A DNA stretch of 64,000 nt from a virus. The stretch covers positions 5,508 to 69,507 of IMG/VR virus record IMGVR_UViG_3300025655_000002. The stretch is one strand, 5' to 3'. The notes beneath the pieces were generated by a model that saw nothing but the letters and a program-made list of their open reading frames with translations, made no database searches and was not told the DNA's origin. Of the stretch, positions 5,747 to 62,779 are shown in pieces (position 1 is the stretch's first letter; every line of letters starts with the position of its first letter). The position numbers and the translations under genes were made by a program.

Positions 5747-5752
5747 AATAAA

Positions 5753-7339
5753 ATGAAAGAAATTAAACTTGAAGAAGATGCTATAAGCACTCAATTAAAA
5801 GGTATTAACACTGCGGTTGACTTGGTTAAAATATCGATGGGAGCAAGAGGAAGATTAGTTAATATAGACCACGCAGGCGGTATTCATTCTACTTATGATG
5901 GGTTTACTATATTGGCTCATACGGCAATGAAAGACAAATGCGAGGACATGGGGGTAAAGATTGTCCTTGAGGCTGCATCTAAACAAGTAAAGGATTGTGG
6001 AGACGGAACAACATCTGTGTCTGTATTGCTTCAAGCAATAATAAATGAAGGAGTTAAAATGCTGAAGTATGATGCTGATAGGATAAAAGTTATTGAAGGA
6101 ATAAACTTAGCGTCAAAAGAAGCTATTAAAATTATAAAAGAATTGGCTAAGCCAGTAAGCAGAGATTCTCATGAGATAGAGCAAATAGCAAAGGTGTCTG
6201 CCCATGGAGACGAGGATATAGCTAAACTGATAGCTGAGGCAATATCTATAACAAACCATAACTCCATAATTAGGGTTGAAGAGTCTAAAGGGAATACCAG
6301 TTATGTTGACTTAGCAAAAGGAATGAAGGTTGGTTCTGGTTGGTTATCTGGTCTATTTGTCAACAATGGCTCTAAAGGAACTGTAGAGTATGATAACCCA
6401 TTAATCCTTGTGTATGAGGGTAAGATTGAAAGGATGGCTCAGTTGCAGAACTTATTAGAAAAATGTGTTAATGCTAAAAAGCCTATCGTAATAGTTTCAG
6501 ATGATATGGATGGAGAAGTCTTAGCATCTTTAGCTTTAAACGCTAAAAAAGGCCTTCCATTTGCAGCTATTAATCCTTTCGGAGAAACAAGAGAGGACAG
6601 AAAAGAAAGATTAGCTGATTTAGCAGCTTATGTTGGAGGGGAATTAATCTCTCCAGACTTAGGGCATAAGCTTGAAAATATAGATTTAAATCAACTAGGA
6701 ACTTGTGATAGGGTTATTATAGCTAAAAACAACTCTATATTTCAGGACGGAGCAGGGCTTGATACTGAAATTCTTAATGAAAGAATATCTAATTTAGAAT
6801 CGTTGGTAAAAATAACAGACCATACTGTTACTAAAACCTTCTACGAGGCTAGATTAGCGGCATTAAACGGAGGTGTTGCTACTATATACGTTGGAGGTAT
6901 AGTTAGTACTGATGTGGTTGAAAGAAAAGACAGAATAGATGACGCTGTTGGTTCGGCATTGTCTGCTCTTGAAGAGGGAGTTGTTCCAGGAGGAGGAGTA
7001 TCTCTATTACATATATCAGAAGAACTACGTAAATTATCAAGTGATGATAGTGATGTTAATATAGGTATAAGTATATTTAAGAAAGCTGTCACAATGCCGA
7101 TTCGACAAATTTTAACAAACGCAGGAGAATCTGTTGATTTTATAATAGATAAAATTAAAAACAAAAAGTCGAAGAGCTATGGATACAATGTTCATACCAA
7201 AGAATATGTAGACATGATTAAAGAAGGTATATTAGACCCAGCTAAAGTAGAAATAAAAATAATAGAAAACGCAACAATAACTGCTACAAACTTCTTAAAT
7301 ACAGGTGGATTGATAGCTGTTGTTCCTGAAAATAATTAA
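5753..7339 (+). CDS. groEL: Phage chaperonin GroEL (Cpn60)
   Basis: 528 aa; GDGTTS, T.DG.TI, ERKDRIDDA, EEGVVPGGG and GILDPAKV motifs. Confidence 0.95.
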   Translation: MKEIKLEEDAISTQLKGINTAVDLVKISMGARGRLVNIDHAGGIHSTYDGFTILAHTAMKDKCEDMGVKIVLEAASKQVKDCGDGTTSVSVLLQAIINEGVKMLKYDADRIKVIEGINLASKEAIKIIKELAKPVSRDSHEIEQIAKVSAHGDEDIAKLIAEAISITNHNSIIRVEESKGNTSYVDLAKGMKVGSGWLSGLFVNNGSKGTVEYDNPLILVYEGKIERMAQLQNLLEKCVNAKKPIVIVSDDMDGEVLASLALNAKKGLPFAAINPFGETREDRKERLADLAAYVGGELISPDLGHKLENIDLNQLGTCDRVIIAKNNSIFQDGAGLDTEILNERISNLESLVKITDHTVTKTFYEARLAALNGGVATIYVGGIVSTDVVERKDRIDDAVGSALSALEEGVVPGGGVSLLHISEELRKLSSDDSDVNIGISIFKKAVTMPIRQILTNAGESVDFIIDKIKNKKSKSYGYNVHTKEYVDMIKEGILDPAKVEIKIIENATITATNFLNTGGLIAVVPENN

Positions 7340-30750: not shown

Positions 30751-31176
30751 TTATTCTGGATTATAAATTTTTCTTAAATATTTTGAACAAAGTTTTAATT
30801 CTTCAAGCATCTCATCTTGAACCTCTGTTTGTTTTCTTATTACCTCTAGTAGTTCATTCCTCTCTTCATTCGATGTTAATATATCACTTAATATATTTAC
30901 CTCCTCTTGGTTTTCTGGTATTATATTATTTATGTATCCTTGTATTATCTCTACTAAGTCTACTACACTCTCTTCGACTGGCACTAAAACTTCGTAAGGA
31001 AATGCAGACAACACAATAACTCCTTCATTTTTCAGTACAAGCTTTCCATTATTAGCTAATACCTCTAAATTGCTTTTAGAATAATATGTCGAATCTTTTT
31101 CATTATTAGTTATTACTCTTAATAAATTTGTGTCATTTACCTCAAATATCCTTATATGTTCTGTTGGATTTGCCAC
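30751..31176 (-). CDS. Hypothetical protein with C-terminal coiled coil
   Basis: ORF (GTG start) coupled within the structural operon. Confidence 0.55.
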   Translation of the reverse strand: MANPTEHIRIFEVNDTNLLRVITNNEKDSTYYSKSNLEVLANNGKLVLKNEGVIVLSAFPYEVLVPVEESVVDLVEIIQGYINNIIPENQEEVNILSDILTSNEERNELLEVIRKQTEVQDEMLEELKLCSKYLRKIYNPE

Positions 31177-45801: not shown

Positions 45802-46866
45802 TTATAGCACAACATAAACATTTTTGATATCCATTAGCATGCATTCTTTTTCTTCTATATCAACATGTGTTGCTGTGCCCTTTCTGAATAATATTTCATC
45901 GCCTTCCTTCAAAGAGGATATGCCTTCAGGTACTGATATGACCTTACCTTTCTCTGGGTATGCTTCTTCTTTTGTTGAAACGACTATCTGACCATGTGTC
46001 ATAGCTTTTCTTATTGGTTCGACAACAATTGTAGTTCCTAATGCTTTCATTTTATCTAAATTATAAATTATATCTTTTGTGTTTATTCTGTAATAAGTGT
46101 GAATACCTATTGTTATTTCGTATTCTCTTCCAGTTTTAAATAAAACCTTGTCACCAGGATAAAGTCCTGACTTCCTGTTTGGGTGTTGAACTATCGCTGT
46201 TCTAGCTTCCTTTTTGGCCATCACCTCTAACATTATTCCGTTGTCAGTTTTCGCTATATCTTTATCTATAGCTGTAACAAGGTTCCATTCATTAAGCATC
46301 TCTATTTCATTGTCAGAAATCTTACAATAAAGGTCTTCGTACTTTATCTCATAATAGGTTTTATCACCAATGACTCTCTCGTTATCCTCATGTGTTAAAA
46401 AATGATGAGTATAAACAACGTCTCCAGGCTTAACTTCAACATCTATCTCATTACCGTAATAACTATTAAAGGCTTTAAAACAGGCGGAATACACAACGCC
46501 ATCTTGAGTTATGTTGTCTTTATCCATCGGGTTATACCTAGTGTCTATATGTATTCCGTTCCTTACTGATTTCTTATCTTTATCAGCATTAACATAGACC
46601 ATGCTTGCTGACGGATGTATAACCCCATCTCTTATAACTCCTCTTATTTCTTCCTCGTATATGTAATACGAATCATCACTAAAGTTTGGAGCTTTATCAA
46701 AAAAGGAATTGTCAGCCATAAAAACCTCATCTCCTTTCACATACACAGAGTTCGGACTAGACTCTATAATTATAGCTCTTTGATATTCGTATATGGAGCC
46801 GATGTCCATTGAAAGTTCTGATGGCTCTGCTCTTTTAGCTATACAGTAACCCTCTTGAACTGTCAT
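45802..46866 (-). CDS. groES: Multi-domain co-chaperonin (3-4 tandem GroES-like domains)
   Basis: Repeated G.V....(V/L)K.GD.V.(F/Y) motifs; last domain MKALG..IVVEP...GKVISV...LKEGDEILF. Confidence 0.7.
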   Translation of the reverse strand: MTVQEGYCIAKRAEPSELSMDIGSIYEYQRAIIIESSPNSVYVKGDEVFMADNSFFDKAPNFSDDSYYIYEEEIRGVIRDGVIHPSASMVYVNADKDKKSVRNGIHIDTRYNPMDKDNITQDGVVYSACFKAFNSYYGNEIDVEVKPGDVVYTHHFLTHEDNERVIGDKTYYEIKYEDLYCKISDNEIEMLNEWNLVTAIDKDIAKTDNGIMLEVMAKKEARTAIVQHPNRKSGLYPGDKVLFKTGREYEITIGIHTYYRINTKDIIYNLDKMKALGTTIVVEPIRKAMTHGQIVVSTKEEAYPEKGKVISVPEGISSLKEGDEILFRKGTATHVDIEEKECMLMDIKNVYVVL

Positions 46867-48914: not shown

Positions 48915-49226
48915 CTATTGTTTAATCTGTTTGTAATCTAAATAATCTTCTAATATCTCACTTAATTCACTTTTTCTAATATTGTGTTCGTTGCTATCTG
49001 ATAACCATTCAAGTAAATCTAAAAGTAATTTCTCCTCTCTTTGCTCTAATTGTTGTTTTAGTTCTTCTATTTGCTTTGCTTGATGTAGCCAAGCATCAAA
49101 ACCGCACATCCTTTCTAATGTAGTCCAATTATCACTATCTTTAACTTGACTGTTAAACCATTCTGTGTATTGTTTCTTTATCTCTTCTATTTCCATAATC
49201 TTATTTTTTATTTTTAATAATATCAC
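48915..49226 (-). CDS. Hypothetical protein (true start possibly MEIEE at 49196)
   Basis: ORF with coiled coil. Confidence 0.5.
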   Translation of the reverse strand: MILLKIKNKIMEIEEIKKQYTEWFNSQVKDSDNWTTLERMCGFDAWLHQAKQIEELKQQLEQREEKLLLDLLEWLSDSNEHNIRKSELSEILEDYLDYKQIKQ

Positions 49227-49249
49227 ATTAAAACGGTTTTTATGCCGAT

Positions 49250-49406
49250 GTTAGCAACAATACTAATAATCGCTAAATCCACCAATCGGCTTACTGTCAA
49301 ATCCTGTTTTATCATCTTCATCTTTCCAATGTTGATGTAAATTAAATTCGTAATCATCTACTTTTGATGTCTGTTCAAATATTTGGTTGCAAGTACTGTT
49401 GCTAAC
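49250..49406 (-). mobile_element. Cassette-like unit bounded by GTTAGC...GCTAAC inverted repeats
   Basis: gttagcaacagtact / agtattgttgctaac (14/15) on the minus strand. Confidence 0.6.
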
Positions 49407-49499
49407 ACCCAATAAACCCAATAAAATAGTTCGTGCTTTCGTTTCAGTAATTGTGCCTTGTTTAAGGTCTTCTGCTATTTTGATAATTTTGTCTTTCAT
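49263..49499 (-). CDS. Chimeric small protein: hairpin-encoded N-terminus plus cassette-encoded C-terminus
   Basis: First 33 aa paralogous to ORF 59212-59451; similarity stops at GVS (GGT GTT AGC). Confidence 0.65.
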   Translation of the reverse strand: MKDKIIKIAEDLKQGTITETKARTILLGLLGVSNSTCNQIFEQTSKVDDYEFNLHQHWKDEDDKTGFDSKPIGGFSDY

Positions 49500-49530
49500 A
49501 ATCTTTTACTGCGTTTATTTGTAGCCGTTA
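49401..49530 (-). repeat. attC-like hairpin element containing ATG and a constant N-terminal coding segment (copy 1)
   Basis: TAAC...aataaacgcagtaaaa...ttttattgggtttatt-gggt-GTTAGC; homologous to 59180-59310. Confidence 0.7.
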
Positions 49531-49860
49531 ATTTTGTATTAAAAATCACATATATACCTCTCGGCTCGATTAATAATATCACAAATGTACCACTTTTAGT
49601 TTGATTAATGCAAGCTTTTTTGTAATTATTTTATAGCTTCGTCATGCATTAAGTGTGTAACCCTTGTGTTTTAAAGGGTTTTTAATCAGAAAAAAATTTC
49701 AAAAATTTTTGGGAGTGGGGTTATGGTGGGTGTGTCGGGGGTGCAATCTCGAAGGGAAAACGGTTCTCAACATACCAGTGGGGTAAATTCTTGCAAGCCT
49801 AATATTTTCAAGCGTTTTGTCTATGTTCTATTTATGATACAAAATGAAACTAACTATCTT

Positions 49861-50502: not shown

Positions 50503-50674
50503 AAACGTTCTTTACATACTGATAAACTAATAACACATAGAGTAACATATAGCACCTCTTACTTGTTATAGTTCTTAAGATAGACAACATTAGAAGTAAT
50601 GGTAAAACAGGCACACTAAGATAGTATTAGAATACAATACCGAACTGACAAATTTAAACGTTCATTGACATACT
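50503..50674 (+). promoter_or_regulatory. Two boxA-like antitermination elements
   Basis: aaacgttctttacatact (50503-50520) and aaacgttcattgacatact (50656-50674). Confidence 0.45.
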
Positions 50675-50684
50675 AGAGTAATTA

Positions 50685-51200
50685 AGTTAGGAGCACGCCA
50701 AAGGGCAATGCAATGAAGCAACCCAAAAGAGTAAGCCCAACTATGCTGAAAAACGCACCGCCTCAAGCCTTGTATGAAATTGTGGGAGCAAGTGGAAGGG
50801 TAGTAAGTGTAAAGTAGTTGACAAGCTGAACTTGTGTAACCGTTAAAGGCGGTTTTAAAAATGCGATAAATATATAATTACGAAGGGATTGACCAACATT
50901 GAAGCCTTGTGGGTAAATTTAAGACCCCCACCTAGCGCAATGAAATAGCTAGACTCAATACGATGGTAAAGAGGTCTGTAAACTATGTAACAACCGCCAG
51001 TATAGTACTGGTCGAGTAGAGCAGATGAGCAATGATGGTCGAAAGTCAAAATAGGTGTGTTTACAACTTCGCACCAGTTAAACACAAAAGTTAGAGCCTT
51101 ACTTGGTAGTAAGGGGTTTGAAAGGCTTTATACCGAAACTACCGTTGCCTCTTGATAGAAGAACTATTTTATAGGAGTAATACCTACAAGAGGAGCTAAT
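50685..51200 (+). ncRNA. Candidate large structured RNA (~500 nt)
   Basis: No credible + strand ORF; raised GC; many hairpins. Confidence 0.4.
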
Positions 51201-51350
51201 CATAAAAAAGAATAAGTTATGAGTACTAAAATATTAAGAATAGAAGGTAGTTATGAGATAATTGGCTTCTTTAGAAATGGAGTAAAACTACGTGAACGTA
51301 GAAGAAGAATATTAAATTAATACAATACCGAATCGTAAAATATATTTGTT

Positions 51351-51983
51351 ATGAGAAAACAATATAAATACCCGTTCAGAAATAAAAAACTGAGCAGAAC
51401 GCAAGTAAAAAACAATATACTTGCAGTGCTAAAAGAGGCTGACAATGAGAGTTATATTAATGGCTCGATATGGTACGATGTAGCCAATGGAATAGCCAAA
51501 AAGTTAATCGTAGCCTCTGAAACTGAAATAAACTTGGCTCAAGCTGTAGGGTTAATAGCTGCTTTGAGTCCTTTAAAAAGTTGGGAACAAAATATACAAT
51601 TGGCTTATGAATTTGTTATTGGTAAAAGAAGTGGGCACACTAAACTTTGTGTTGGTAAAGCAAATGATATACTAGCTTTAAATAACCCAAGTGTTGATGA
51701 GGTGGTAGAAGTTTTGAGCGGGCAAAAAACAGTGAACTTTTTCTTAAACATATACTATCCTAATGAAGATGCAGCAATAACAATAGATAGACACGCAGTA
51801 GGAATAGCTTTGATAGGTACTAAGAAAATAAAACTAACTGAAGAGGAGTGTAAACCTACTAAGGCACAGTTTGAGTTCTTGGTGCACTGTTACAAATGGG
51901 CTGCTTCTGAGTTAAGTTTGTCTGCAGTACAGTTACAAGCTATTACTTGGGAGCACTTTAGAAATATAAAAGTAAAAAGATAA
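51351..51983 (+). CDS. Conserved phage protein, DUF7178-like (HhH/glycosylase-like)
   Basis: G..WY..A, AALSP..SW..N, G.K..NF..NI, TIDRHA and QA.TW motifs. Confidence 0.6.
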   Translation: MRKQYKYPFRNKKLSRTQVKNNILAVLKEADNESYINGSIWYDVANGIAKKLIVASETEINLAQAVGLIAALSPLKSWEQNIQLAYEFVIGKRSGHTKLCVGKANDILALNNPSVDEVVEVLSGQKTVNFFLNIYYPNEDAAITIDRHAVGIALIGTKKIKLTEEECKPTKAQFEFLVHCYKWAASELSLSAVQLQAITWEHFRNIKVKR

Positions 51984-52020
51984 TACAATACCGAACCGTA
52001 AAATTTAAACACTAGAAATT

Positions 52021-52245
52021 ATGAGTAGATTTAAAATAAAAACAACATCAAGTGGTAGATGTGATGTAACACTAACGATATTTAATGAACATGGCACTGT
52101 CATTGGGCAAAAGGCATCTACATACGATATTAAACCGACTATTAAAGAATTATTAGACTATGCTAAAACATACAAAAAGGATGGTGCTAAAACAGTTAGA
52201 ATAACAACCACACCAAGCTTCAGTGTAAAAACATATAGATTATAA
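52021..52245 (+). CDS. Hypothetical early protein
   Basis: ORF preceded by the leader repeat. Confidence 0.6.
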   Translation: MSRFKIKTTSSGRCDVTLTIFNEHGTVIGQKASTYDIKPTIKELLDYAKTYKKDGAKTVRITTTPSFSVKTYRL

Positions 52246-52250
52246 TTGTA

Positions 52251-52369
52251 TATAACGTTGCTGTATATGACACGTAGCATCACAGACCTTTGAGATACGA
52301 AATAAATTAATAATTAAACACATAGTTTTAAAATAGCCTAACAGCTATGTGTTATATACTTTGTTAGGC
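52251..52369 (+). repeat. attC-like hairpin element
   Basis: TATAAC-N6-gtatatgacacgtagc...gctatgtgttatatac-N3-GTTAGGC. Confidence 0.65.
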
Positions 52370-52563
52370 ACAGTTAATTATGAAAAGATTTAATTTGAAA
52401 TACAACGTAGGAAAAGTAAAGTATTTAGTTTCTTACCATGACGGAGAAAAGAAACATAAAGACGGAAGCGACTTCTTTGATATTGCCTGCTTCAAGAATA
52501 AAGTAAAACTAAATGCTTTCACGAATGAATTACTAAAACAAGGGTACTCTAATTGTGCCTAAC
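52363..52563 (+). mobile_element. Cassette-like unit carrying ORF 52380-52562
   Basis: gttaggcacagtt / aattgtgcctaac inverted ends (12/13); ORF stop lies inside GCCTAAC. Confidence 0.65.
52380..52562 (+). CDS. Small conserved phage protein
   Basis: NVGKVKY.VSYHDG.K.HKDGS.FFDI..FKNK. Confidence 0.65.
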   Translation: MKRFNLKYNVGKVKYLVSYHDGEKKHKDGSDFFDIACFKNKVKLNAFTNELLKQGYSNCA

Positions 52564-52604
52564 AGTCGTATAAATACAATTCAACAAACTAAACCTCAGA
52601 AATT

Positions 52605-52790
52605 ATGAAGACTTATAAATACCCATTCAGAAATAAAAAACTGAGTAGAACGCAAGTAAAAAACAATATACTTGCAGTACTAAAAGAGGCTGATAATGAT
52701 AGCTTTATTTTTGGGCAACAATGGTACACAGAAGCTAATAATATAGCTAAAAAGTTGAAAGTTAATACAATACCGAATAGTCAAATTTAA
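52605..52790 (+). pseudogene. Truncated duplicate of the 5' end of ORF 51351-51983
   Basis: About 50 codons largely identical, then runs into the CAATACCGAA repeat and stops. Confidence 0.7.
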
Positions 52791-52801
52791 AACTAAAAAT
52801 C

Positions 52802-53101
52802 ATGGAAAACTTAAAGGTAAAACAATTTTCATTTCCATTTAGAGTGGCAATGGTTAGTAGTAATACCAATTCATTTGGATTATATCAAATGATTGTAATG
52901 AGTAAAAAAGGAGAGGCTTATAAAACACACGCCTCTATGTATAATGTTAAGAAAGTAGGTGAAGATATTAATTTAATAGTCACAACTAAACAAAATGAAA
53001 AAGGTAATGATGTAGTTACTAGTTCTTACTTTAGAGGTTGTGAAATGACTGTTAAATTACCAAAAGTACCTAAAGAAGTACTTAATGAAGTGTTTCAATA
53101 A
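52802..53101 (+). CDS. Hypothetical early protein
   Basis: ORF flanked by leader repeats. Confidence 0.6.
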   Translation: MENLKVKQFSFPFRVAMVSSNTNSFGLYQMIVMSKKGEAYKTHASMYNVKKVGEDINLIVTTKQNEKGNDVVTSSYFRGCEMTVKLPKVPKEVLNEVFQ

Positions 53102-53131
53102 CACAATACCGAACTGTTAAAAATAAACATC

Positions 53132-53323
53132 ATGAAGAATTTAAGCGAAAGCACAGACTTTGTATTGTTCGATAGAGCAAACAATAGTATAGTTAAGTTT
53201 GAGGAAGATAGTAGTATAATTTTTTACGGCAACGAAGAAGAAGCTATTGAAGATTGTTTTGGCAATGAGGAAGTAGTTAAAGTTTCAGAATTATACAAAA
53301 CCAATAAAGAACTTTTTGATTGA
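53132..53323 (+). CDS. Hypothetical early protein
   Basis: ORF flanked by leader repeats. Confidence 0.6.
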   Translation: MKNLSESTDFVLFDRANNSIVKFEEDSSIIFYGNEEEAIEDCFGNEEVVKVSELYKTNKELFD

Positions 53324-53363
53324 ACTATAATTAACACAATACCGAACTGTTAAATTTAAACCA

Positions 53364-53582
53364 ATGAAAACATTAGAAGAAAGAGTAGCTATAGCTGTAA
53401 AGTTTATAAAACTGTATAAGAAAAACATACGTTTTATTAAAAGTAGAATTGAAATACAGAATAAAGAAGGGTATAATCCTTACTATTATGGCAGCTTAAA
53501 AGAAAGGCAGTACAATCAATTTGATATTGATTTACAGTTAACCAAGCTAAATAATGTTAAACAAAAACTTGAAGAGTTATGA
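53364..53582 (+). CDS. Hypothetical early protein
   Basis: ORF preceded by leader repeat. Confidence 0.6.
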   Translation: MKTLEERVAIAVKFIKLYKKNIRFIKSRIEIQNKEGYNPYYYGSLKERQYNQFDIDLQLTKLNNVKQKLEEL

Positions 53583-53739
53583 ATTTTCTATTTGAATTAA
53601 ACAGAATATTATTAGCAGAAGAATTGTTTTATTATTCTTTCATTGAGCATAATGACATTAATAGTGACTATTCGGCATTGGCTGATACTGAAACAACATA
53701 TTTATTAACTAATTATAAATTCTCTAAAAACTAGAAATT

Positions 53740-53916
53740 ATGAACAAAGAATTAATAGCAAGAGCAATCCTACGTGGAGATGAGACTTACACTGAAAATA
53801 AAATCACTATCACGCTTCCTAAAGGTCAAAGCGCTGGTACTGAAACTCAGAAATTATTCTATGCTAGAAAAAAAGCAGACGAAATAGTTAAAGGTGCTGA
53901 GTTTTTACAAGGTTAA
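53740..53916 (+). CDS. Small hypothetical protein (58 aa, not in ORF track)
   Basis: aaaactagaaattATG leader as in neighbouring genes; open to TAA 53914-53916. Confidence 0.5.
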   Translation: MNKELIARAILRGDETYTENKITITLPKGQSAGTETQKLFYARKKADEIVKGAEFLQG

Positions 53917-54115
53917 CTGATGAGATTTTAATAATCAAAACTAGAAATGACACAAAACCACCTACCATTAAATTACTAGGTACGGTGTGGTATGTCAAAT
54001 GGGATGAATGGGGTTTAAGACCTGTAAAAAGTCCTAGCAAATTTAAGTCGCTGTCGGAATTGTCTGACAGCGATTATCAAAAAGTATTAGAAACAATTTA
54101 AAATAGGAGGTACAA

Positions 54116-54700
54116 ATGAACAAATCAAAAATCGTTGGTGCAGAAAGAACATTAAACTTTTTGTACTATTTATACAACCATACAGGTATGACAAAAGCTA
54201 TTCAAGAATGCTTTGCAGACCTTGGTGAAAATATGGTAAACCATTTTTTAAACAAGTTAGATGGAATGATAGGGGATGATTTTGTGTGCAGACCACAACA
54301 TATATTGTCTTGGTTCTTTGAACTTAGCACAAGTTATCAATATCAATTCCTAGAGTGGGTTAATGATAATTACGACAACCGTGGAGTAACAAGGCAACAC
54401 ACGTTTGACTTGCCCGATTGTTCTTGGGGTAGAACTCATAAATATGTAACAGAAGATTTTCATTATGAGATTGCAAGCAGCAAAGACTACTCAAATGGTC
54501 GGCACGTAATACCATCAGAGATTAATCAATCATTAACCTCTTGTATCAAGTATGCACAGGAGTTGAGAGATAAAAATGATGGGCGAGATGCTTATTGGAA
54601 TAATCAAGATGAGATTATCACAAAAGTTACAACCACTAAAGAGGTTGTTCATATAGTAAGAAGTGAAGATAAAATATCAACTAAAAAAGAGGAGGTTTAA
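54116..54700 (+). CDS. Hypothetical protein
   Basis: ORF with AGGAGG upstream. Confidence 0.6.
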   Translation: MNKSKIVGAERTLNFLYYLYNHTGMTKAIQECFADLGENMVNHFLNKLDGMIGDDFVCRPQHILSWFFELSTSYQYQFLEWVNDNYDNRGVTRQHTFDLPDCSWGRTHKYVTEDFHYEIASSKDYSNGRHVIPSEINQSLTSCIKYAQELRDKNDGRDAYWNNQDEIITKVTTTKEVVHIVRSEDKISTKKEEV

Positions 54701-54701
54701 A

Positions 54702-54851
54702 ATGGAATCTACAATTGTAAGCAAGGGAGACCTTATGAAGTTAGTGTATAGCGAAGAAGAATTAAGAAACATTGATTCGGCTATACCTGCTAATGTGTGG
54801 GATGAATACCCACCAATCAAACACGTAATGAACTACAACGAGATTAGTTGA
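54702..54851 (+). CDS. Small hypothetical protein (start revised to 54702)
   Basis: AGGAGG at 54690-54695, then ATG. Confidence 0.45.
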   Translation: MESTIVSKGDLMKLVYSEEELRNIDSAIPANVWDEYPPIKHVMNYNEIS

Positions 54852-55049
54852 CCTAGTTGGTCTAGTTATTATTAATCTAGCAACTAAAGCAGTTATCAAT
54901 TTTAGTGAATTATCATCACAAGTTAGAGACTTGATAATTCACAACTTTTATTAACAGGAGGTAGAAAGCCACCCCTTAGATGGGTGCGCCTCCTAGTCTT
55001 AATCAATAATTAATACAATACCGAATAGTCAAATTTAAAACTAGAAATT

Positions 55050-55241
55050 ATGGCAAAGAAAATTTTTGTACGGTTAGGAGTGTCAGACATTGTACTAACC
55101 AAAGAGGAAGCTGCAACAATTCCTGGTTATGTTAATGTCATTGACAACCAAGGAGAGTACGTAACAGATGTCGAAACTTATCTTGTCGGATATGAAGATG
55201 AAGACGGGAACGAGTGTGATGAAGACGGAAACCCTTTGTAA
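55050..55241 (+). CDS. Small acidic protein
   Basis: Leader repeat; DEDGNECDEDGN C-terminus. Confidence 0.6.
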   Translation: MAKKIFVRLGVSDIVLTKEEAATIPGYVNVIDNQGEYVTDVETYLVGYEDEDGNECDEDGNPL

Positions 55242-55274
55242 TTAACAAGTTATAAATAAAATAGGAGGCACAAA

Positions 55275-55628
55275 ATGAACACAACAGAAAACAATAAGCT
55301 AATCGCTGAATTTATGGGTATTGAATCATTTAAGGATAGTTTAGCCTCTTTAAATGATGGGAAAATCAATATAAGTAAGGATGTTTATGAACAAGCAAAA
55401 TACCACACCTCTTGGGATTGGTTAATGCCAGTTGTAGAGAAGATTGAAAGCATAATATTTGATGAGAATAATAGTTTCAATGTAACAATAGGCTCAACTA
55501 TTTACTGCGTGATACAAGATTCAAATGGAGAATGCTACGATATGACTTATGATGGAGAGAAAACTAAATTGCTAGTTGTTTACAAAGCAATAGTAGAATT
55601 TATTAAATGGTATAATGAAAATAAATAA
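55275..55628 (+). CDS. Conserved Bacteroidota-phage protein
   Basis: NNKLIAEFMG...YHTSWDWLMPVVEKIE...Y.A.VEFIKWYN. Confidence 0.65.
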   Translation: MNTTENNKLIAEFMGIESFKDSLASLNDGKINISKDVYEQAKYHTSWDWLMPVVEKIESIIFDENNSFNVTIGSTIYCVIQDSNGECYDMTYDGEKTKLLVVYKAIVEFIKWYNENK

Positions 55629-55821
55629 TACAATGCCGAACAGCCAGTTAGATTTATTCACTATCACGCCTGCTGAGGTTAAAGCTAAGTTTTACGCTGC
55701 CTCATATAAAAGGGCTGAAGAAAGAAAAAAGAAAGAAAGAGACTGCTCTTCTGACTTTATATCTATAAAGACTGGAGAATGTAGACCTTTTAAGAAAGAG
55801 GATTTTAAACTTAAAAAATAG
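55615..55821 (+). CDS. Hypothetical protein
   Basis: ORF. Confidence 0.45.
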   Translation: MKINNTMPNSQLDLFTITPAEVKAKFYAASYKRAEERKKKERDCSSDFISIKTGECRPFKKEDFKLKK

Positions 55822-55826
55822 AAGTT

Positions 55827-56033
55827 ATGAAAGCGTACACAATATTTTTAATTTACTGTATAGGTAGGGATATTTATTCTTACTGGGAGAGAACGCCTTA
55901 TGATACTGCTTATGAAGAGGCTGGTGAAATTTATAAGGTATTTAAAAAACATTATAATAAAAATGAGGATTTGTATTTGGAGATTGAGAATTTTATGGCT
56001 TGCTCAAGTCTTTATGATGAAGTATTAATCTAA
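55827..56033 (+). CDS. Hypothetical protein
   Basis: ORF. Confidence 0.5.
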   Translation: MKAYTIFLIYCIGRDIYSYWERTPYDTAYEEAGEIYKVFKKHYNKNEDLYLEIENFMACSSLYDEVLI

Positions 56034-56161
56034 AATCGGCATTGTATGATAAACTTAATAATGGCGTACCACTGGAGAAATAGTGGTATAAGAGGAACTT
56101 TCAACGAAGAACTCTATAAAAGAATATTAGAAGTAAAATTGTTTAACGAAAACAAGTAAAG

Positions 56162-56428
56162 ATGAAAACAGTAGAGATAACAATCGCAAACAAGAGAATA
56201 GTAAAAAAGACTGACAAGGGTATTGTGTTCTCTGTAGATGGATATAATGGAGGTATTTTCACTATCCCATTTATAGCAATAGAATCTCAAGAAGAAGGAG
56301 TTATTCCTGTTAATGATGTTAGTAGTTATGAAGCAGTAGTCTATGTAATACATAGATGGCTGTATGAAAAAATAAAAGGTAGTTTAGATAGAATGAGTAA
56401 GGCTCATTTTACAATGCCGAATCGTTAA
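56162..56428 (+). CDS. Hypothetical protein
   Basis: ORF ending in a repeat copy. Confidence 0.55.
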   Translation: MKTVEITIANKRIVKKTDKGIVFSVDGYNGGIFTIPFIAIESQEEGVIPVNDVSSYEAVVYVIHRWLYEKIKGSLDRMSKAHFTMPNR

Positions 56429-56468
56429 ATTTTTACCAGTTAAATAGTAATTTTAAAAACAAAATAAG

Positions 56469-56687
56469 ATGTTTGAATTAAATGAAAATCACAGAGAAGC
56501 ACTTTTAAATATTTTAGAAAGGTGTAATGAAAAAATCCAACAGTTAAATTACTCTATTAATAGTCATCATGTAAAAAATGATGATGATGAATCTTTTATT
56601 GATTGGAGAAATATGGATTTATTCTTAGAAATAGAAAAGAAAAAATTGATTGAAAAATCATTAATTGATAATAAAATAGACTTTTAA
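56469..56687 (+). CDS. Hypothetical protein
   Basis: ORF. Confidence 0.55.
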   Translation: MFELNENHREALLNILERCNEKIQQLNYSINSHHVKNDDDESFIDWRNMDLFLEIEKKKLIEKSLIDNKIDF

Positions 56688-56875
56688 AATAAATAGAATA
56701 TACCGCTATGAAAACGCATCAATTATTAAGTAGTTATACCTTTATTGGAAGTAGTCCTGTTTTGAGTGGTTTTATCCTTATAGGTTATTCGGGGGCTAGG
56801 GTTAGAAGTCATATTAGTTATATTTCAATGAATTAATACAATGCCGAATAGCGATAAAAAATTGGAGGATTAAAT

Positions 56876-57112
56876 ATGAAAAAGAAAGATATTTTTAGTA
56901 GTATATTTTTTATACTATTTGCCCCTACAACTGCTCTCTTGGTAGTTAAATCATTATTATCAATTATATATATGATAATTTGTTTTATAACATGGGAAGA
57001 TTCTAATGTTATGTATGAAAATCTTGAGTCATTTATGAGTATACATCCTATGACTATTAGATTATTGATATTAGTTACTGTGATATTAATAATATGGTGT
57101 ATTTGCAATTAA
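56876..57112 (+). CDS. Small membrane protein
   Basis: Two hydrophobic segments. Confidence 0.55.
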   Translation: MKKKDIFSSIFFILFAPTTALLVVKSLLSIIYMIICFITWEDSNVMYENLESFMSIHPMTIRLLILVTVILIIWCICN

Positions 57113-57124
57113 AAGAAAAAACAC

Positions 57125-57856
57125 ATGAAAAAGACAGTTAAAGTAGTTATGCTACCTACAAAAAAAGCAAGTTTATGTAAAGATAGTTCGGGAAAGTTAT
57201 TTTATTACCCTAAAGATAATTGGTTTTCAAAGGATTTTGAAACTGACCCTCAATACCTATACTTTGTATCTGATGAAAAGATTAAAGAAGGAGATTGGTA
57301 TTATTGTTCTTCCGCAAATTGCATATTTAAAAATGAAGGAGACAATAAATTAGCTTGGATTATTGATGAGAAAAAAGTAATAGCCACGTCAGATAAGTCT
57401 TTGAGTGAGAAAACTTGTGATAGATGTGATGGAAATGGTAGGTATATAGAAAAAGTACTTTCAACTAGACCTCAACGAATAATGAGTGGCTATACATATT
57501 GCTCTAAATGCTCTGAAAGAGGTGTCTTAAATAACCTACCACAAATCCCAGAATCATTCATTAAAGCTTATGTAGAAGCTAATGGAGAGATAGATGAGGT
57601 TATGGTGGAGTATGATAATCCAAGTCCTTGGACAGAAAAAGAAATTAAAGATTGGAATATTAAAGCTAAATTAGAACTCAAAACAACAGTATCCAATGAG
57701 GTTATTATTTCTTTACCTGAAGAGAAGATGTATAATAAAGATGAAATAACTGACATTGTATTCAATTCTATGAGCAATATTTTGGATGAGGTTAGTAAAG
57801 AGTATCATGGGGATTTATATGAATACGCTGTTAATTATGTAAAAGGAAACTTATGA
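57125..57856 (+). CDS. Conserved Bacteroidota-phage protein with inserted CxxCxGxG zinc finger
   Basis: VVMLPT...QYLY..SDE.IKEGDW...IATSD...LPQIPESFI; CDRCDGNG...CSKC insert. Confidence 0.65.
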   Translation: MKKTVKVVMLPTKKASLCKDSSGKLFYYPKDNWFSKDFETDPQYLYFVSDEKIKEGDWYYCSSANCIFKNEGDNKLAWIIDEKKVIATSDKSLSEKTCDRCDGNGRYIEKVLSTRPQRIMSGYTYCSKCSERGVLNNLPQIPESFIKAYVEANGEIDEVMVEYDNPSPWTEKEIKDWNIKAKLELKTTVSNEVIISLPEEKMYNKDEITDIVFNSMSNILDEVSKEYHGDLYEYAVNYVKGNL

Positions 57857-57892
57857 TACAATACCGAATCGTTGAATTTAAAACTTTAAGTT

Positions 57893-58210
57893 ATGAATAA
57901 ACAAGAAAATTTTGGAGAGTATATACTTCCTTTTAGGGTACATACTCCTAACTTGCTAAATGAGACAATATATAATGCGGTAAGACCTATTGATAGGGCA
58001 GCATTACATATACCGTTAAATTATTTTATGGGTTATTTGCGAGTTCTGACAAAAAGGTGTTCAGAATTAAATGACCCAGTATTAAATAAGATAATGATTG
58101 ATATGACCCTTTATGATGAATCTGATTTTTGTAGTAAAGATTATAACCAAGAAATGGTTGATGCTGTTAATAAAAATTACAAAGAATATATTAAAAACCT
58201 ACAGATATGA
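57893..58210 (+). CDS. Hypothetical protein
   Basis: ORF preceded by leader repeat. Confidence 0.6.
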   Translation: MNKQENFGEYILPFRVHTPNLLNETIYNAVRPIDRAALHIPLNYFMGYLRVLTKRCSELNDPVLNKIMIDMTLYDESDFCSKDYNQEMVDAVNKNYKEYIKNLQI

Positions 58211-58470: not shown

Positions 58471-58508
58471 AAATCGCTGTTCGGTATTGTCTAATTAAAA
58501 TATTATTG

Positions 58509-58628
58509 TATATTTGCCTCAGAGACAGTACTTACATCAATCAAGTACATAACGAACAAAAATAAAGCCGTTTCCTAGTTATCTTCTTTGTAAGTAACTG
58601 TCTCTCAAGGGGACGGCTATTTTTTTTT
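58509..58628 (+). promoter_or_regulatory. Promoter plus attenuator-like leader / small RNA with terminator
   Basis: TATATTTG at 58509; stem 58521-58536/58589-58605 interleaved with terminator 58566-58576/58608-58618 and T-tract. Confidence 0.55.
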
Positions 58629-58962
58629 ACATACAAGGCAAACGAATGAGTTCATATTTCCCCACTCACTATCATAAAAAGGGATGTAAAAATGTTTGTA
58701 ACGAGTAACAGTTAGTCGAAAATACATGCAATGCTTCAAGCCAGCAACATGTGACCTACAAGATTAATGAAGACTATGATAACAAAACGTCAGTTTGTTT
58801 ACTGTTCAACTGACTACCTGTAATAGGTTAGGGGGTTATCGCTGAAGCTCTGATTAAATTATAATATTGTTTTTATATTGTAATTTTTGAAATCCCTGTT
58901 TTGTAGGGGAATAAGGCGAGGTATATAAAATTAAAACAAATGTTAAGTTAGCTATACACATT

Positions 58963-59185
58963 GTTAGCAACTGGGCGATTTTAAAAACGAAAGATATGTT
59001 TAACGCAAACAAAAAAATACCATCAAGAGGGTATAAAGTACCAAGCGGATTTGGTTGGGATTATAGAGCAACTGCAATAGCTTATCTGGAAAGAGAAGGG
59101 TTGTTTACTATTGGACACGCAAACGGAAACTACTATACTCTAACTCAACTTAAAAATGCGAGGGTTGGGTAGCCTTGTTGCTAAC
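58963..59185 (+). mobile_element. Cassette-like unit carrying a 58-aa ORF
   Basis: gttagcaactgggc / gccttgttgctaac inverted ends (12/14). Confidence 0.6.
58996..59172 (+). CDS. Small hypothetical protein (58 aa, MFNANKKIP...; not in ORF track)
   Basis: ATG 58996 to TAG 59172; fills the cassette. Confidence 0.55.
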   Translation: MFNANKKIPSRGYKVPSGFGWDYRATAIAYLEREGLFTIGHANGNYYTLTQLKNARVG

Positions 59186-59310
59186 GTTTTGAATAAACAC
59201 AGTAAAATATTATGAAAACAGAACTTAACAAAATAGCAAAAGACCTTGAACAAGGCACGATAACCGACCAAGAAGCACGAACACTTTTATTGGGTTTATT
59301 GGGTGTTAGC
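59180..59310 (+). repeat. attC-like hairpin element containing ATG and constant N-terminus (copy 2)
   Basis: GCTAAC-N6-aataaacacagtaaaa...ttttattgggtttatt-gggt-GTTAGC. Confidence 0.7.
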
Positions 59311-59451
59311 AAACGTTTTTTTTGGTTAAAACCTGATGGAACTATTTCTAATATGTGGGATGAAGAAGACCATTTGAAATACTTAACCGATAAAGATATT
59401 GAAAATGCCCAAAAAGATGGTTGGCAGTGCATTCAGATAAATGTTTGCTAA
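59212..59451 (+). CDS. Chimeric small protein: hairpin-encoded N-terminus plus cassette-encoded C-terminus
   Basis: N-terminus paralogous to 49263-49499 up to GVS; stop lies inside GCTAAC. Confidence 0.65.
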   Translation: MKTELNKIAKDLEQGTITDQEARTLLLGLLGVSKRFFWLKPDGTISNMWDEEDHLKYLTDKDIENAQKDGWQCIQINVC

Positions 59452-59452
59452 C
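59305..59452 (+). mobile_element. Cassette-like unit
   Basis: gttagcaaacgttt / aaatgtttgctaac inverted ends (13/14). Confidence 0.65.
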
Positions 59453-59496
59453 ATCGGCATAAAAACCGTTTTAATGGTTTTTATAAAGTGTTAAAG
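59447..59496 (+). repeat. Minimal attC-like hairpin
   Basis: GCTAAC-atcggc-ataaaaaccgtt-tt-aatggtttttat-aaagt-GTTAAAG; first ~30 bp repeated inverted at 49226-49256. Confidence 0.65.
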
Positions 59497-59817
59497 CACG
59501 TTTTAATGTGCTTATTTTAAAGTATATAAAATTAAAACAAGCATAGATTATGGGGATGAGATAATATGTGCTTTGAATCAGAAAAACGCAGGCAGAAAGA
59601 CAAAGAAAAAAGGTTTAATATGACTAAACAAAACTAACATCATGATACAGATATATTTTATAATGGCAGCATTAGTGACTTCGCTATTCTTTTTACATGA
59701 TAGAAACTGTCACAAGAAATGGTACAACTACTACGAAGCAACTGTATTTATAGTAGCTTCTTTTATAGTATTATTTACTCCATACATAAATTACTTCATT
59801 ATTAAGTTAGGATTACA

Positions 59818-62532: not shown

Positions 62533-62778
62533 ATGAAATATAGGTGGTGTTACCCACCGTTAAACTTAGAAAATATGTACAAAGCATTTCAAAACAAAAA
62601 GTATTACTTAGCATTTAACACATTTCCAAAGACTGCTAAGAACGTAAGTAAAGTATATTTATCTGGAATTAGAAATTGGACAGCAGATGATATGTATAAC
62701 TATTCTATTGTGATAAATAGATTTAGAATAATCTTTGGAATAAAACGAATAACTCACGATTGTTGTAATGGTGGGTAA
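62533..62778 (+). CDS. Cassette-borne hypothetical protein (alternative start 62575)
   Basis: Stop lies inside GGGTAAC. Confidence 0.55.
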   Translation: MKYRWCYPPLNLENMYKAFQNKKYYLAFNTFPKTAKNVSKVYLSGIRNWTADDMYNYSIVINRFRIIFGIKRITHDCCNGG

Positions 62779-62779
62779 C
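62549..62779 (+). mobile_element. Cassette-like unit
   Basis: gttacccaccgtt / aatggtgggtaac inverted ends (12/13), followed by attC-like hairpin 62776-62824. Confidence 0.6.

What the first reader, a model, noticed from the sequence alone, without database searches (positions are those of the whole stretch)
49226..49530. Natural cassette swap: same flanking sites, different insert, giving two proteins with a shared N-terminus
Seen: this minus-strand locus has the same upstream hairpin (TAAC..aataaacgcagtaaaa..attATG..ttttattgggtttattgggtGTTAGC) and the same downstream site (GCTAACatcggcataaaaaccgttttaatg) as 59180-59476, but an unrelated 157-bp insert with its own matched ends (gttagcaacagtact/agtattgttgctaac). 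The proteins MKDKIIKIAEDLKQGTITETKARTILLGLLGVS|NSTC... and MKTELNKIAKDLEQGTITDQEARTLLLGLLGVS|KRFF... diverge exactly at the junction. The downstream site here also looks shortened by a deletion between two cgttttaatg repeats present in the other copy. Inference: the best internal evidence that the junctions are real recombination points and that the system makes constant-variable fusion proteins.
Basis: partly seen in the sequence, partly recalled or inferred. Interest (0 to 1): 0.85.

Follow-up and report, generated by a model that had tools for sequence, protein, structure and literature searches.

The report
Stem-bracketed gene cassettes in a phage
Two small genes of a Bacteroidota-type phage share a 33-residue start but have unrelated ends, because each is built from an exchangeable leader piece and an exchangeable body piece, each closed by its own matching stem, a design repeated across hundreds of related phage genes.

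Summary
The loci at 49226-49530 (-) and 59180-59476 (+) share a 121-nt leader block (83% identical) ending at GTTAGCAA. They also share a 32-nt block (100% identical) beginning TTGCTAAC. About 140 unrelated bases lie between.

The leader is widespread. A profile of it finds 369 cluster representatives at 50% identity. I counted 74 unrelated C-terminal groups among 176 distinct proteins.

Each variable body is bracketed by a 14-16 bp inverted repeat. Its sequence differs between cassettes, but the two arms stay complementary. The ends T|GTT...AAC|G are near-invariant, and there is a fixed G:T pair at position 11.

This signature occurs 114 times on the sense strand of 279 kb of related loci. 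It occurs 0 times on the antisense strand, and 1.2 are expected by chance. It also brackets unrelated neighbouring genes in tandem arrays, whose spacers are themselves hairpins.

Recent indel and swap breakpoints fall exactly on these boundaries.

Best reading: structure-defined, separately exchangeable leader and body modules. They resemble integron cassettes/attC sites and T4 PeSL cassettes. No integron integrase is present and the enzyme is unknown. The main rival is that the stems act in the mRNA.

The parts
49521..49531 (-). Locus A: upstream boundary remnant (TTAAC|G plus linker) in front of the leader module
   Evidence: The same YAAC-G is found 8-10 nt before AATAAAC in the related loci.
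49503..49519 (-). Locus A leader module, 5' arm (5'UTR, AATAAACGCAGTAAAAG)
   Evidence: It is complementary to 49411-49427. The pairing appears in both the MFE and the centroid fold.
49407..49499 (-). Locus A leader coding part, codons 1-31
49411..49427 (-). Locus A leader module, 3' arm (codons 25-30)
   Evidence: It is conserved at the nucleotide level across 59 distinct modules, synonymous sites included.
49250..49406 (-). Cassette A, 157 nt. The 5' arm is 49392-49406 and the 3' arm is 49250-49264. The stop codon TAG is at 49263-49265.
   Evidence: The stem appears in the RNA fold, z = -2.77.
49263..49499 (-). ORF P0001 (78 aa): leader plus body A
49226..49249 (-). Downstream block shared with locus B. 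It holds the first half of a GTTTTAAT-loop hairpin; the 3' arm is missing here.
   Evidence: (I3), and (stem of 2).
58963..59185 (+). Upstream neighbour cassette holding ORF 58996-59172 (P0003, own start codon). It is bracketed by 9-nt arms, GTTAGCAAC and GTTGCTAAC.
   Evidence: This is a weaker bracket with no GT at positions 11-12.
59186..59304 (+). Leader module B. The 5'UTR arm is 59192-59208, the ATG is at 59212, and the 3' arm is 59284-59300.
59212..59451 (+). ORF P0002 (79 aa): leader plus body B
   Evidence: The AlphaFold2 model has pLDDT 93.
59305..59452 (+). Cassette B, 148 nt. The 5' arm is 59305-59318 and the 3' arm is 59439-59452. The stop codon TAA (59449-59451) lies inside GCTAAC.
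59453..59513 (+). Two short hairpins after cassette B, at 59458-59488 and 59494-59513. Each has the loop GTTTTAAT.
   Evidence: (stems of 9 and 6).
52263..52563 (+). A further unit of the same design. The spacer hairpin has arms 52263-52278 and 52344-52359. The cassette is 52363-52563 and holds ORF 52380-52562.
62549..62779 (+). A further bracketed cassette (arms 62549-62562 and 62766-62779) within ORF 62533-62778. A GTTTTAATG follows at 62830.

Best explanation
Shown. The two genes belong to a large family of small genes of Bacteroidota-type phages. Each gene is assembled from two separately exchangeable pieces.

Piece 1 is a leader module of about 119 nt. It comprises a conserved 5'UTR, the start codon and 31 codons. 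Its two ends are complementary.

Piece 2 is a cassette holding the rest of the ORF and the stop codon. It is closed by a 14-16 bp stem. The stem's inner sequence is specific to each cassette, but it keeps these features:
- the invariant ends T|GTT ... AAC|G;
- a T:G pair at position -1;
- a G:T pair at position 11.

The same brackets enclose unrelated neighbouring genes in tandem arrays. The spacers between them are hairpins of three sizes: about 46, 80 or 117 nt. Cassettes and spacers assort independently. Recent indels and swaps break exactly at the two boundaries. Joining the same leader to different cassettes gives proteins with a constant N-terminus and a variable C-terminus.

Inferred. 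The boundaries are structure-defined recombination sites. They would be read on folded single-stranded or extruded DNA, in the manner of integron attC sites. attC sites have conserved AAC/GTT triplets at the base of a stem of otherwise free sequence, and a cassette's 5' end is complementary to its own 3' site. An unidentified phage or host enzyme would excise and insert the modules. Homologous recombination inside the highly conserved leader adds further shuffling. On this view the 'constant domain' is largely dictated by the nucleic-acid element that encodes it.
For: Covariation of the arms. In 59 distinct family genes, the own 5' arm against the own 3' arm scores a mean of 10.8. Arms paired across different genes score 7.1 (n = 2978). 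In 45 of 59 genes the best repeat starts at or within 3 nt upstream of the GTT of codon 32.

The signature. GTT-N7-GT...AT-N7'-AAC, allowing at most 1 mismatch, occurs 114 times on the sense strand. It occurs 0 times on the antisense strand, and 1.2 per strand are expected, over 279 kb.

The stem. In 87 distinct cassettes of at most 700 nt:
- positions 1-10 and 12-14 form Watson-Crick pairs in 84-87 of 87;
- position 11 is G:T in 87 of 87, although positions 1-3 and 11-12 were imposed by the search;
- positions 13-14, which were not imposed, pair in 85 of 87;
- position -1 is T:G in 70 of 87.
Where N7 is exactly complementary, the pair at position 11 is G:T 92 times and G:C once.

The spacers. 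Of 27 spacers between consecutive cassettes, the own-arm stem score is 13.7 against 6.6 for cross pairings.

The breakpoints:
- L079 carries one extra 315-nt unit (short spacer plus cassette) relative to L082. The flanks are 100% identical, and TAACGGTTTGCAG stands at both ends.
- L081 and L082 diverge right after ...ATAAC|G.
- L022 and L023 are 99% identical over 1.2 kb. They diverge at ...AAT|G on the left and at GTTA| on the right.

Independent assortment. One upstream-60-nt cluster is followed by 16 cassette clusters. One downstream cluster is preceded by 14.

The leader. Nucleotides are conserved at synonymous sites. For example, Leu codons 12, 25, 26, 27 and 29 use a single codon in 58/59, 55/55, 59/59, 58/59 and 58/59 modules.

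A cultured phage. Polaribacter phage P12002L has the same brackets beside its methyltransferase genes. Qi et al. 2023 (PMC9892861; I read sections 3.4 and passages of the rest) predicted attC sites in a cluster that holds two methyltransferase genes. They showed that IntI1 recombines one of them.
Against: - No integron integrase is present. The own genome has only a 189-aa Xer-like catalytic-domain recombinase, far below every NCBIfam cut-off.
- PF00589 was found in only 1 of 5 other virus records, which are 23-93% complete. None is annotated in P12002L.
- All four fixed non-Watson-Crick pairs are G:T on the sense strand. That is what an RNA stem would show.
- Every breakpoint seen can also be produced by homologous recombination in conserved spacers followed by selection.
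- The L079/L082 indel and one search suggest that a cassette travels with its upstream spacer. In 6 of 13 multi-context cassettes the upstream is the same and the downstream differs. In 2 of 13 the reverse holds. An integron cassette carries its attC downstream.
- I could not check that the published P12002L attC coordinates coincide with these elements, because the supplements were closed.
- RNAalifold on 59 leader modules predicted only a 4-bp inner hairpin and not the outer stem. The single-sequence fold of locus B also lacks the outer stem.
- No circular or excised form has been seen.
Confidence: 0.5

Rival explanations
1. The stems act in the mRNA. Each body is looped out by a fixed-length 15-16 bp RNA stem with conserved G.U pairs. 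Each start region is presented in the loop of a spacer hairpin. The purpose would be processing, stability or control of translation. Module exchange would be ordinary homologous or illegitimate recombination, filtered by selection. Breakpoints would sit at the boundaries only because the arms must travel with their body.
For: - All fixed non-Watson-Crick pairs are G:T on the sense strand: position 11 in 87 of 87, position -1 in 70 of 87, and 40 G:T pairs with G on the 5' arm in the spacer stems.
- The signature occurs 114 times on the sense strand and 0 times on the antisense strand.
- The stop codon has a fixed relation to the 3' arm. It is the TAA of TAAC in 26 of 94 cassettes, and it ends 11-13 nt before the end of AAC in 41 of 94.
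- Start codons lie in the spacer loops.
- The RNA folds of loci A and B are more stable than shuffles, with z = -2.77 and -1.96.
- No recombinase is consistently present.
Against: - At the variable stem positions G:T is not favoured: 5 G:T, 3 A:C and 9 other among about 780 pairs. This is unlike most RNA stems.
- A stem cut by a double-strand RNase would separate the leader from its body.
- No Rfam family matched the window or three loci.
- Clean one-unit indels with only 13 nt of shared sequence are hard to obtain by plain homology.
- Empty hairpins exist: arms closing only a GTTTTAAT loop. They serve no mRNA body.
Confidence: 0.3
2. The constant N-terminus is conserved for a function of the protein itself. 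It could be a two-helix adaptor, or a targeting tag that delivers diverse small effector domains to one partner or place. Analogues, recalled from memory, are the capsid-targeting sequence of T4 internal proteins and the demarcation motifs of polymorphic toxins. The nucleotide conservation would be secondary. This reading can hold together with either of the two above.
For: - Two distant leaders (P0125, P0126) keep the helix pattern ...I..I..DL..G....EA...LL.L..VS in front of the same body, with little sequence identity.
- AlphaFold2 models residues 2-13 and 19-29 as two confident helices followed by a strand at 33-39, with pLDDT 93.
- The leader begins at residue 1 in 143 of the 150 best representatives.
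Against: - Synonymous sites of the leader are almost invariant among 59 distinct modules. This points to a constraint on the nucleic acid.
- Other leaders in the same arrays end in peptides dictated by the spacer's 3' arm, such as ..NIPAVSGS and ..LHIADVIS.
- No family or fold match was found. Pfam and PHROGs gave nothing significant. Foldseek against the PDB gave 0 of 261 listed matches at E <= 0.001. The protein atlas gave nothing.
Confidence: 0.25
3. It is an invertible or shufflon-type switch: the inverted repeats are sites for an invertase that flips the cassette to change the C-terminus.
For: Inverted repeats flank a C-terminal coding segment, as in Mu Gin or P1 Cin tail-fibre switches (recalled from memory).
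Against: - No cassette was found in the flipped orientation: 0 antisense signatures against 114 sense.
- The own genome has no serine recombinase.
- The repeats are specific to each cassette and do not form one common site.
- The antisense frame of locus B (P0004) is a low-complexity run that also crosses the leader.
Confidence: 0.02
4. It is ordinary divergence of two paralogues, or a diversity-generating retroelement target. The sharp boundary and matched ends would be chance.
For: Only two copies exist in this genome. The hexamer GTTAGC alone is not enriched.
Against: - The boundary is sharp, going from 100% identity to none.
- There are 74 unrelated C-terminal groups.
- The signature occurs 114 times against 1.2 expected.
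- The genome has no reverse transcriptase.
- The bodies are unrelated. They are not variants differing at adenines.
Confidence: 0.02

Closest known systems
Integron gene cassettes and attC sites, including the attC clusters (CALINs) reported in virulent phages (Qi et al. 2023, PMC9892861; abstract, section 3.4 and passages read)
   Same: - Co-oriented small ORFs stand in tandem arrays.
- Structured elements of 46-120 nt lie between cassettes. The attC range of 57-141 nt is recalled from memory.
- Conserved AAC and GTT triplets sit at the base of a stem whose remaining sequence is free.
- A cassette's 5' end is complementary to the site at its own 3' end.
- Cassettes are gained and lost one unit at a time.
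- The same bracket design is present in Polaribacter phage P12002L, in which that paper predicted attC sites.
   Different: - There is no IntI.
- The complementary arms are 14-16 bp, against 7 in attC.
- The arms have fixed G:T pairs, whereas attC sites have extrahelical bases.
- The R-box consensus RYYYAAC/GTTRRRY is met only as NNNYAAC/GTTRNN.
- The element between cassettes carries a promoter or start region and often 14-35 codons fused in frame to the next cassette.
- A cassette seems to travel with its upstream spacer, not its downstream one.
PeSL mobile regulatory cassettes of T4-type phages (Arbiol et al. 2010, PMC2839356, abstract and section 13 read; Comeau et al. 2014, PMC4122927, abstract read)
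   Same: - Repeated intergenic stem-loop plus expression-signal elements flank small accessory ORFs in plastic regions of a lytic phage.
- They mark the points of insertion, deletion and replacement.
- G-T pairs are noted in the stems.
   Different: - PeSLs are direct repeats of a sigma-70 promoter with a local stem-loop, and they act through homologous recombination between PeSLs.
- Here each gene body has its own long-range, cassette-specific inverted repeat.
- The spacer is a second hairpin.
- The spacer can encode the N-terminus of the protein.
pdif (XerC/XerD) modules of Acinetobacter plasmids
   Same: Discrete gene modules are bounded by inversely oriented recombination sites that alternate in orientation along an array. 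The phage's own small recombinase is Xer-like.
   Different: No dif-like 11-6-11 site was recognised. The arms here are module-specific and complementary, and do not form a common protein-binding sequence. The recombinase is absent from most related records.
Conserved-leader, hypervariable-core gene families: prochlorosin precursors, T4 internal proteins with a capsid-targeting sequence, CdiA/Rhs C-terminal swapping (all recalled from memory)
   Same: A nearly constant N-terminal part is joined at a sharp motif (here ..LLGLLGVS) to many unrelated C-terminal parts.
   Different: No modifying enzyme, protease site or toxin/immunity pair was identified. The constant part here coincides with a structured nucleic-acid element.

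Membership tests
Integron cassette / attC | Conserved AAC (R'') and GTT (R') triplets at the base of an imperfect hairpin | tested here: met
   AAC and GTT are invariant by construction of the search. However, T at -1 (96%), R at position 4 (96%), Y at -4 (96%) and G at +1 (79%) were not imposed. The spacers are hairpins.
Integron cassette / attC | Full R-box consensus RYYYAAC / GTTRRRY | tested here: not met
   Only the innermost Y/R is conserved. At the other positions the expected purine or pyrimidine class is seen in 39-79% of the 94 cassettes, against 96% at the innermost Y/R.
Integron cassette / attC | Integron integrase (IntI) encoded beside the array | tested here: not met
   The own genome has one 189-aa Xer-like recombinase, 38 bits against a cut-off of 265 for TIGR02249. 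PF00589 was found in 1 of 5 other records.
Integron cassette / attC | 5' end of a cassette complementary to its own 3' site | tested here: met
   Own-pair score 10.8 against 7.1 for cross pairs. Positions 13-14 pair in 85 of 87 cassettes.
Integron cassette / attC | Recognition by an attC model (HattCI or IntegronFinder) and recombination by IntI | not testable with these tools
   No attC model was available. Qi et al. report IntI1 activity on one P12002L site. Its coordinates are in supplements that I could not open.
PeSL-type regulatory cassette | Repeated composite of promoter plus stem-loop in the intergenic regions of plastic genome regions | tested here: inconclusive
   Hairpin spacers with start regions are shown. 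Promoter function was not tested, and no clear Bacteroidota -7/-33 motif was recognised by eye.
PeSL-type regulatory cassette | Indels and replacements bounded by the repeated element | tested here: met
   L079/L082, L081/L082 and L022/L023.
Invertase switch / shufflon | The same segment found in both orientations, with an invertase gene | tested here: not met
   0 antisense signatures against 114 sense. No PF00239 in the own genome.
Diversity-generating retroelement | Reverse transcriptase, and a template repeat similar to the variable region | tested here: not met
   No PF00078. The bodies are unrelated.
IS200/IS605-type hairpin transposon | Y1 HUH transposase | tested here: not met
   No PF01797 in the own genome.

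The most novel reading that the evidence does not exclude
Bacteroidota phages carry a previously undescribed gene-shuffling system that works without an integron integrase. Accessory-gene regions are chains of self-closing stem-loop modules. Gene bodies and their expression/leader modules are separate units. Each is delimited by T|GTT...AAC|G at the base of its own stem, with fixed G:T marks. An unknown structure-specific enzyme moves them, and this builds leader-body fusion proteins combinatorially.
Probability: 0.4. Interest if true: 0.9.

Novelty: new variant of a known kind. Interest (0 to 1): 0.8.

Why it matters
If the boundaries are true recombination sites, this would be a cassette system native to lytic phages. 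It would explain at nucleotide resolution how their small accessory genes, the likely host-takeover and counter-defence genes, are swapped so quickly.

It would also be a natural system in which a structured DNA or RNA element doubles as the coding sequence for a protein's N-terminus.

The signature GTT-N7-GT...AT-N7'-AAC gives a simple way to delimit accessory cassettes in metagenomic phage contigs.

Finally, it offers an alternative reading of 'attC sites' predicted in phages that lack integrases.

A cultured system, Polaribacter phage P12002L, carries the same brackets, so the question can be tested at the bench.

Tried and rejected
Protein annotation. Pfam and PHROGs scans of P0001-P0003 gave nothing significant. 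The protein atlas gave no usable hit. Foldseek of the confident P0002 model against the PDB gave 0 matches at E <= 0.001 among 261 listed. I therefore assign no function to the bodies.

RNA annotation. Rfam at gathering threshold gave 0 matches on the window and three loci. No tRNA was found.

Cultured phages. megablast of 12.5 kb of the window found no match. tblastn of P0002 against 50,697 phage records found no match. The leader family is therefore not in cultured phages, although the bracket design is.

Exact-pattern scan. The downstream 22-mer has 0 hits in the viral contigs.

Candidate mechanisms. I looked for a reverse transcriptase, a serine recombinase and a Y1 transposase in the own genome and found none. 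I rejected the DGR, invertase and IS200-type readings on that basis.

Leader module fold. RNAalifold did not recover the outer stem.

GTTTTAATG. Its count in the window is not significant on its own: 4 against 1.5 expected, and 7 of 100 shuffles reach 4. Only 30 of 103 distinct GTTTTAAT contexts are flanked by a stem of at least 4 bp. The motif is meaningful only in the subset next to cassette boundaries.

Other indels. Two other indels (L048/L049 and L085/L087) are not at bracket boundaries. I set them aside as ordinary gene-internal indels.

Literature. Searches on Flavobacterium or Cellulophaga phage repeats and on CALIN/attC in phages found only Qi et al. 2023. I found no description of cassette-specific brackets or of this leader family in those four searches. 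This is not proof that nothing is in print.

Paper supplements were closed. The attC coordinates of Qi et al. may bear on the comparison with P12002L.
Full report
**Context**

The window is 64 kb of a complete 69.5-kb virus record with direct terminal repeats. G+C is about 33%. It encodes a terminase, a portal protein, GroEL-like and GroES-like proteins and large structural proteins.

The terminase is 29% identical to those of Flavobacterium, Cellulophaga, Maribacter and related phages. There were 91 matching records, all below 60% identity. Genes diverge from about position 50000. The right arm is a run of small + strand ORFs.

**The observation**

Locus A (minus strand) and locus B (plus strand) share two blocks:
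- 121 nt at 83% identity, running from the 5'UTR through codon 33 and ending at GTTAGCAA;
- 32 nt at 100% identity, beginning TTGCTAAC.

About 140 unalignable bases lie between them.

The products are P0001 (78 aa) and P0002 (79 aa). They share residues 1-33 and then diverge.

GTTAGCAAC occurs four times against 0.33 expected, all at these loci. GTTAGC alone is not enriched. The genome has only these two copies of the leader.

**The leader is a widespread constant part**

- A search with an alignment of three members found 339 proteins of 42-139 aa at E <= 0.01, among 356 candidates.
- A profile of the 36-residue leader, built from 57 sequences, was scored against 1.84 billion representatives at 50% identity. 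It found 369 at E <= 0.001 and 143 at E <= 1e-10. In 143 of the 150 listed, the match starts at residue 1. Lengths run from 37 to 193 aa.
- The body of P0002 also occurs behind two strongly diverged leaders, P0125 and P0126.
- No member was found in 50,697 cultured phage records.
- Only 2 loci were found among representative genomes of 185,579 prokaryote species. One is an Ekhidna (Bacteroidota) MAG.

**The boundaries are stems, not hexamers**

I fetched 9 IMG/VR loci and 71 metagenome loci. They hold 76 complete genes, which give 59 distinct proteins.

The sequence just after the GTT of codon 32 and the sequence at the stop codon differ from gene to gene, yet they remain complementary. Examples of the first bases of the 5' arm are GTTACC, GTTATG, GTTGGC and GTTAGT. 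Each is answered by its complement before AAC.

- Own-pair repeat scores average 10.8. Arms paired across different genes average 7.1 (n = 2978).
- In 45 of 59 genes the best repeat starts at or within 3 nt upstream of that GTT. In 14 of 59 it does not.

**The signature across the loci**

The signature GTT-N7-GT...AT-N7'-AAC, with at most one mismatch in N7, occurs as follows over 279 kb of loci:
- 114 times on the strand of the family gene;
- 0 times on the other strand;
- 1.2 times per strand in block shuffles.

Near-duplicate contigs inflate the figure of 114. There are 94 distinct cassettes, the window's included.

In the 87 distinct cassettes of at most 700 nt:
- positions 1-10 and 12-14 are Watson-Crick in 84-87 of 87;
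- position 15 pairs in 53 of 87;
- pairing stops after that;
- position 11 is always G (5' arm) with T (3' arm);
- the pair just outside the stem is T with G in 70 of 87.

With an exactly complementary N7, position 11 is G:T 92 times and G:C once.

The stop codon is the TAA of TAAC in 26 of 94 cassettes. It ends 11-13 nt before the end of AAC in 41 of 94. This explains why unrelated bodies so often end in C, R, G or H.

**The brackets are not special to this leader**

In the same contigs the signature encloses neighbouring, unrelated small ORFs in tandem arrays. L019 has ten or more in 4.5 kb. L018, L025, L054, L055, L067, L069 and L076 are similar.

Some of these ORFs have other leaders, for example a family ending ..LNIPAVSGS. 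Others start inside the cassette.

The 27 spacers between consecutive cassettes fall into size classes of about 80 nt and 114-120 nt. Each is a hairpin:
- the stem has 17-20 bp;
- it begins 4-7 nt after AAC and ends 1-4 nt before GTT;
- own-arm score is 13.7 against 6.6 for cross pairings;
- there are 40 G:T pairs, with G on the 5' arm, among 452 stem positions.

A third, shorter class is a 10-13 bp hairpin capped by the loop GTTTTAAT. The same loop also caps empty cassette stems.

The leader module of the finding is one subtype of the long spacer. Its 5'UTR (AATAAACACAGTAAAAG) is complementary to codons 25-30. The block downstream of loci A and B is the short GTTTTAAT hairpin. It is complete in B, where two stand in tandem, and truncated in A.

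The window has two further full brackets, at 52363-52563 and 62549-62779. It also has a weaker one at 58963-59185.

**Evidence of exchange**

- L079 and L082 are 100% identical, except that L079 carries one extra 315-nt unit (a short spacer plus a cassette). TAACGGTTTGCAG stands at both ends.
- L081 and L082 are identical up to ...ATAAC|G and then differ.
- L022 and L023 are 99% identical over 1.2 kb. They differ to the left of ...AAT|G and to the right of GTTA|. There, a non-family leader is joined to two different cassettes.
- Across all loci, 13 cassette clusters occur in more than one context. In 6 the upstream is the same and the downstream differs. In 2 the reverse holds. In 5 both differ.
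- One upstream cluster (the family leader) precedes 16 cassette clusters. One downstream cluster follows 14.

Bodies and spacers therefore assort independently at both boundaries. There is a tendency for a body to keep its upstream spacer.

**The leader as nucleic acid and as protein**

Among 59 distinct modules, synonymous sites are nearly invariant. Variation is concentrated in codons 3-6, 10, 16 and 19-24 and is mostly non-synonymous.

The last residues of other leaders are dictated by the spacer's 3' arm. This argues that much of the 'constant domain' reflects a constraint on the DNA or RNA.

However, the diverged leaders P0125 and P0126 keep the helix pattern. AlphaFold2 gives a confident model for P0002 (pLDDT 93): two helices in the leader, then a small alpha/beta body. 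A protein role is therefore not excluded.

No family or fold match was found.

**Mechanism**

The design matches integron logic in several points that I tested:
- AAC and GTT at the base of a stem of free sequence;
- a cassette's 5' end complementary to its own 3' site;
- structured elements of attC-like size between cassettes;
- gain and loss one unit at a time.

It fails on others:
- there is no IntI;
- the R-box consensus is only partly met;
- the arms are longer and carry fixed G:T pairs;
- the spacer lies upstream of its cassette.

The own genome encodes a 189-aa Xer-like catalytic-domain recombinase next to an HNH endonuclease, outside the window. Only 1 of 5 other virus records has a tyrosine recombinase. 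P12002L has none annotated. There is no reverse transcriptase, serine recombinase or Y1 transposase.

Polaribacter phage P12002L carries the same brackets. One example is a perfect 16-bp stem with G:T at position 11, at 30952-31120 on the minus strand, beside its methyltransferase genes. It also has GTTTTAAT-loop spacers. Qi et al. 2023 predicted attC sites in a cluster of that phage holding two methyltransferase genes, and found that IntI1 recombines one of them. I could not check the coordinates.

The main rival is an RNA function. All fixed non-canonical pairs are G:U on the sense strand, the signature is strictly sense-stranded, and stop and start codons have fixed relations to the stems. 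Against this, the variable positions show no preference for G:U, and empty hairpins exist.

I place about 0.5 on structure-directed DNA exchange and 0.3 on an RNA function with ordinary recombination. The remainder goes to minor rivals. A protein-level role for the leader can coexist with either.

**Verdict**

The finding is real and its interpretation is essentially right. It also opens onto a larger, very regular architecture. In four literature searches I found it described only in part, as software-predicted attC sites in one related phage.

Noticed in passing
window 50630-57900 (+), also 45726, 62417, 63796: A repeated intergenic motif of about 30 nt (TAATACAATACCGAA..GT.AAATTTAAA; some copies have AATGCCGAA) lies just upstream of many small + strand ORFs. 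Family D2 has 8 copies. It looks like a phage-specific promoter or regulatory site and is distinct from the hairpin spacers.
   Followed up: no
window 58471-58995: A 525-nt stretch with no ORF of 60 aa or more. It contains a long stem (about 58520-58610) followed by a run of T, so it could be a non-coding RNA. No Rfam family matched.
   Followed up: partly
window 51363-51505 and 52614-52756: A second pair with a shared start: a 143-nt direct repeat at 83% identity (D4). It covers the beginnings of ORF 51351-51983 (210 aa, phrog_3842) and ORF 52605-52790 (61 aa).
   Followed up: no
window 5753-7339 and 45802-46866: The phage encodes a GroEL-like chaperonin (phrog_5725, E = 1e-116) and a 354-aa protein with a GroES-like C-terminus.
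   Followed up: no
own genome G000:C1:118-1297 (L091), outside the window: An HNH-type endonuclease (208 aa) overlaps the start of a 189-aa Xer-like tyrosine recombinase that has only the catalytic domain. Both lie near the genome end.
   Followed up: partly
L019:2721-5051 and 5456-6079: A second leader family (..NLDN.QKP.LNIPAVSGS and variants) precedes several cassettes. A longer ORF with a DNA-methyltransferase-like sequence also begins with a leader ending ..DVSGS.
   Followed up: partly
L043:4129-4165, L063:2938-2975, L076:4259-4295, L018:1811-1845: Empty cassettes: the bracket arms close only a GTTTTAAT loop and hold no gene. They may be the ground state of the element or footprints of lost bodies.
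   Followed up: partly
L092 (Polaribacter phage P12002L) 14622-15197: One bracket on the + strand encloses two overlapping convergent ORFs. One is an unannotated + strand ORF of 80 aa. The other is the annotated - strand gp24.
   Followed up: no
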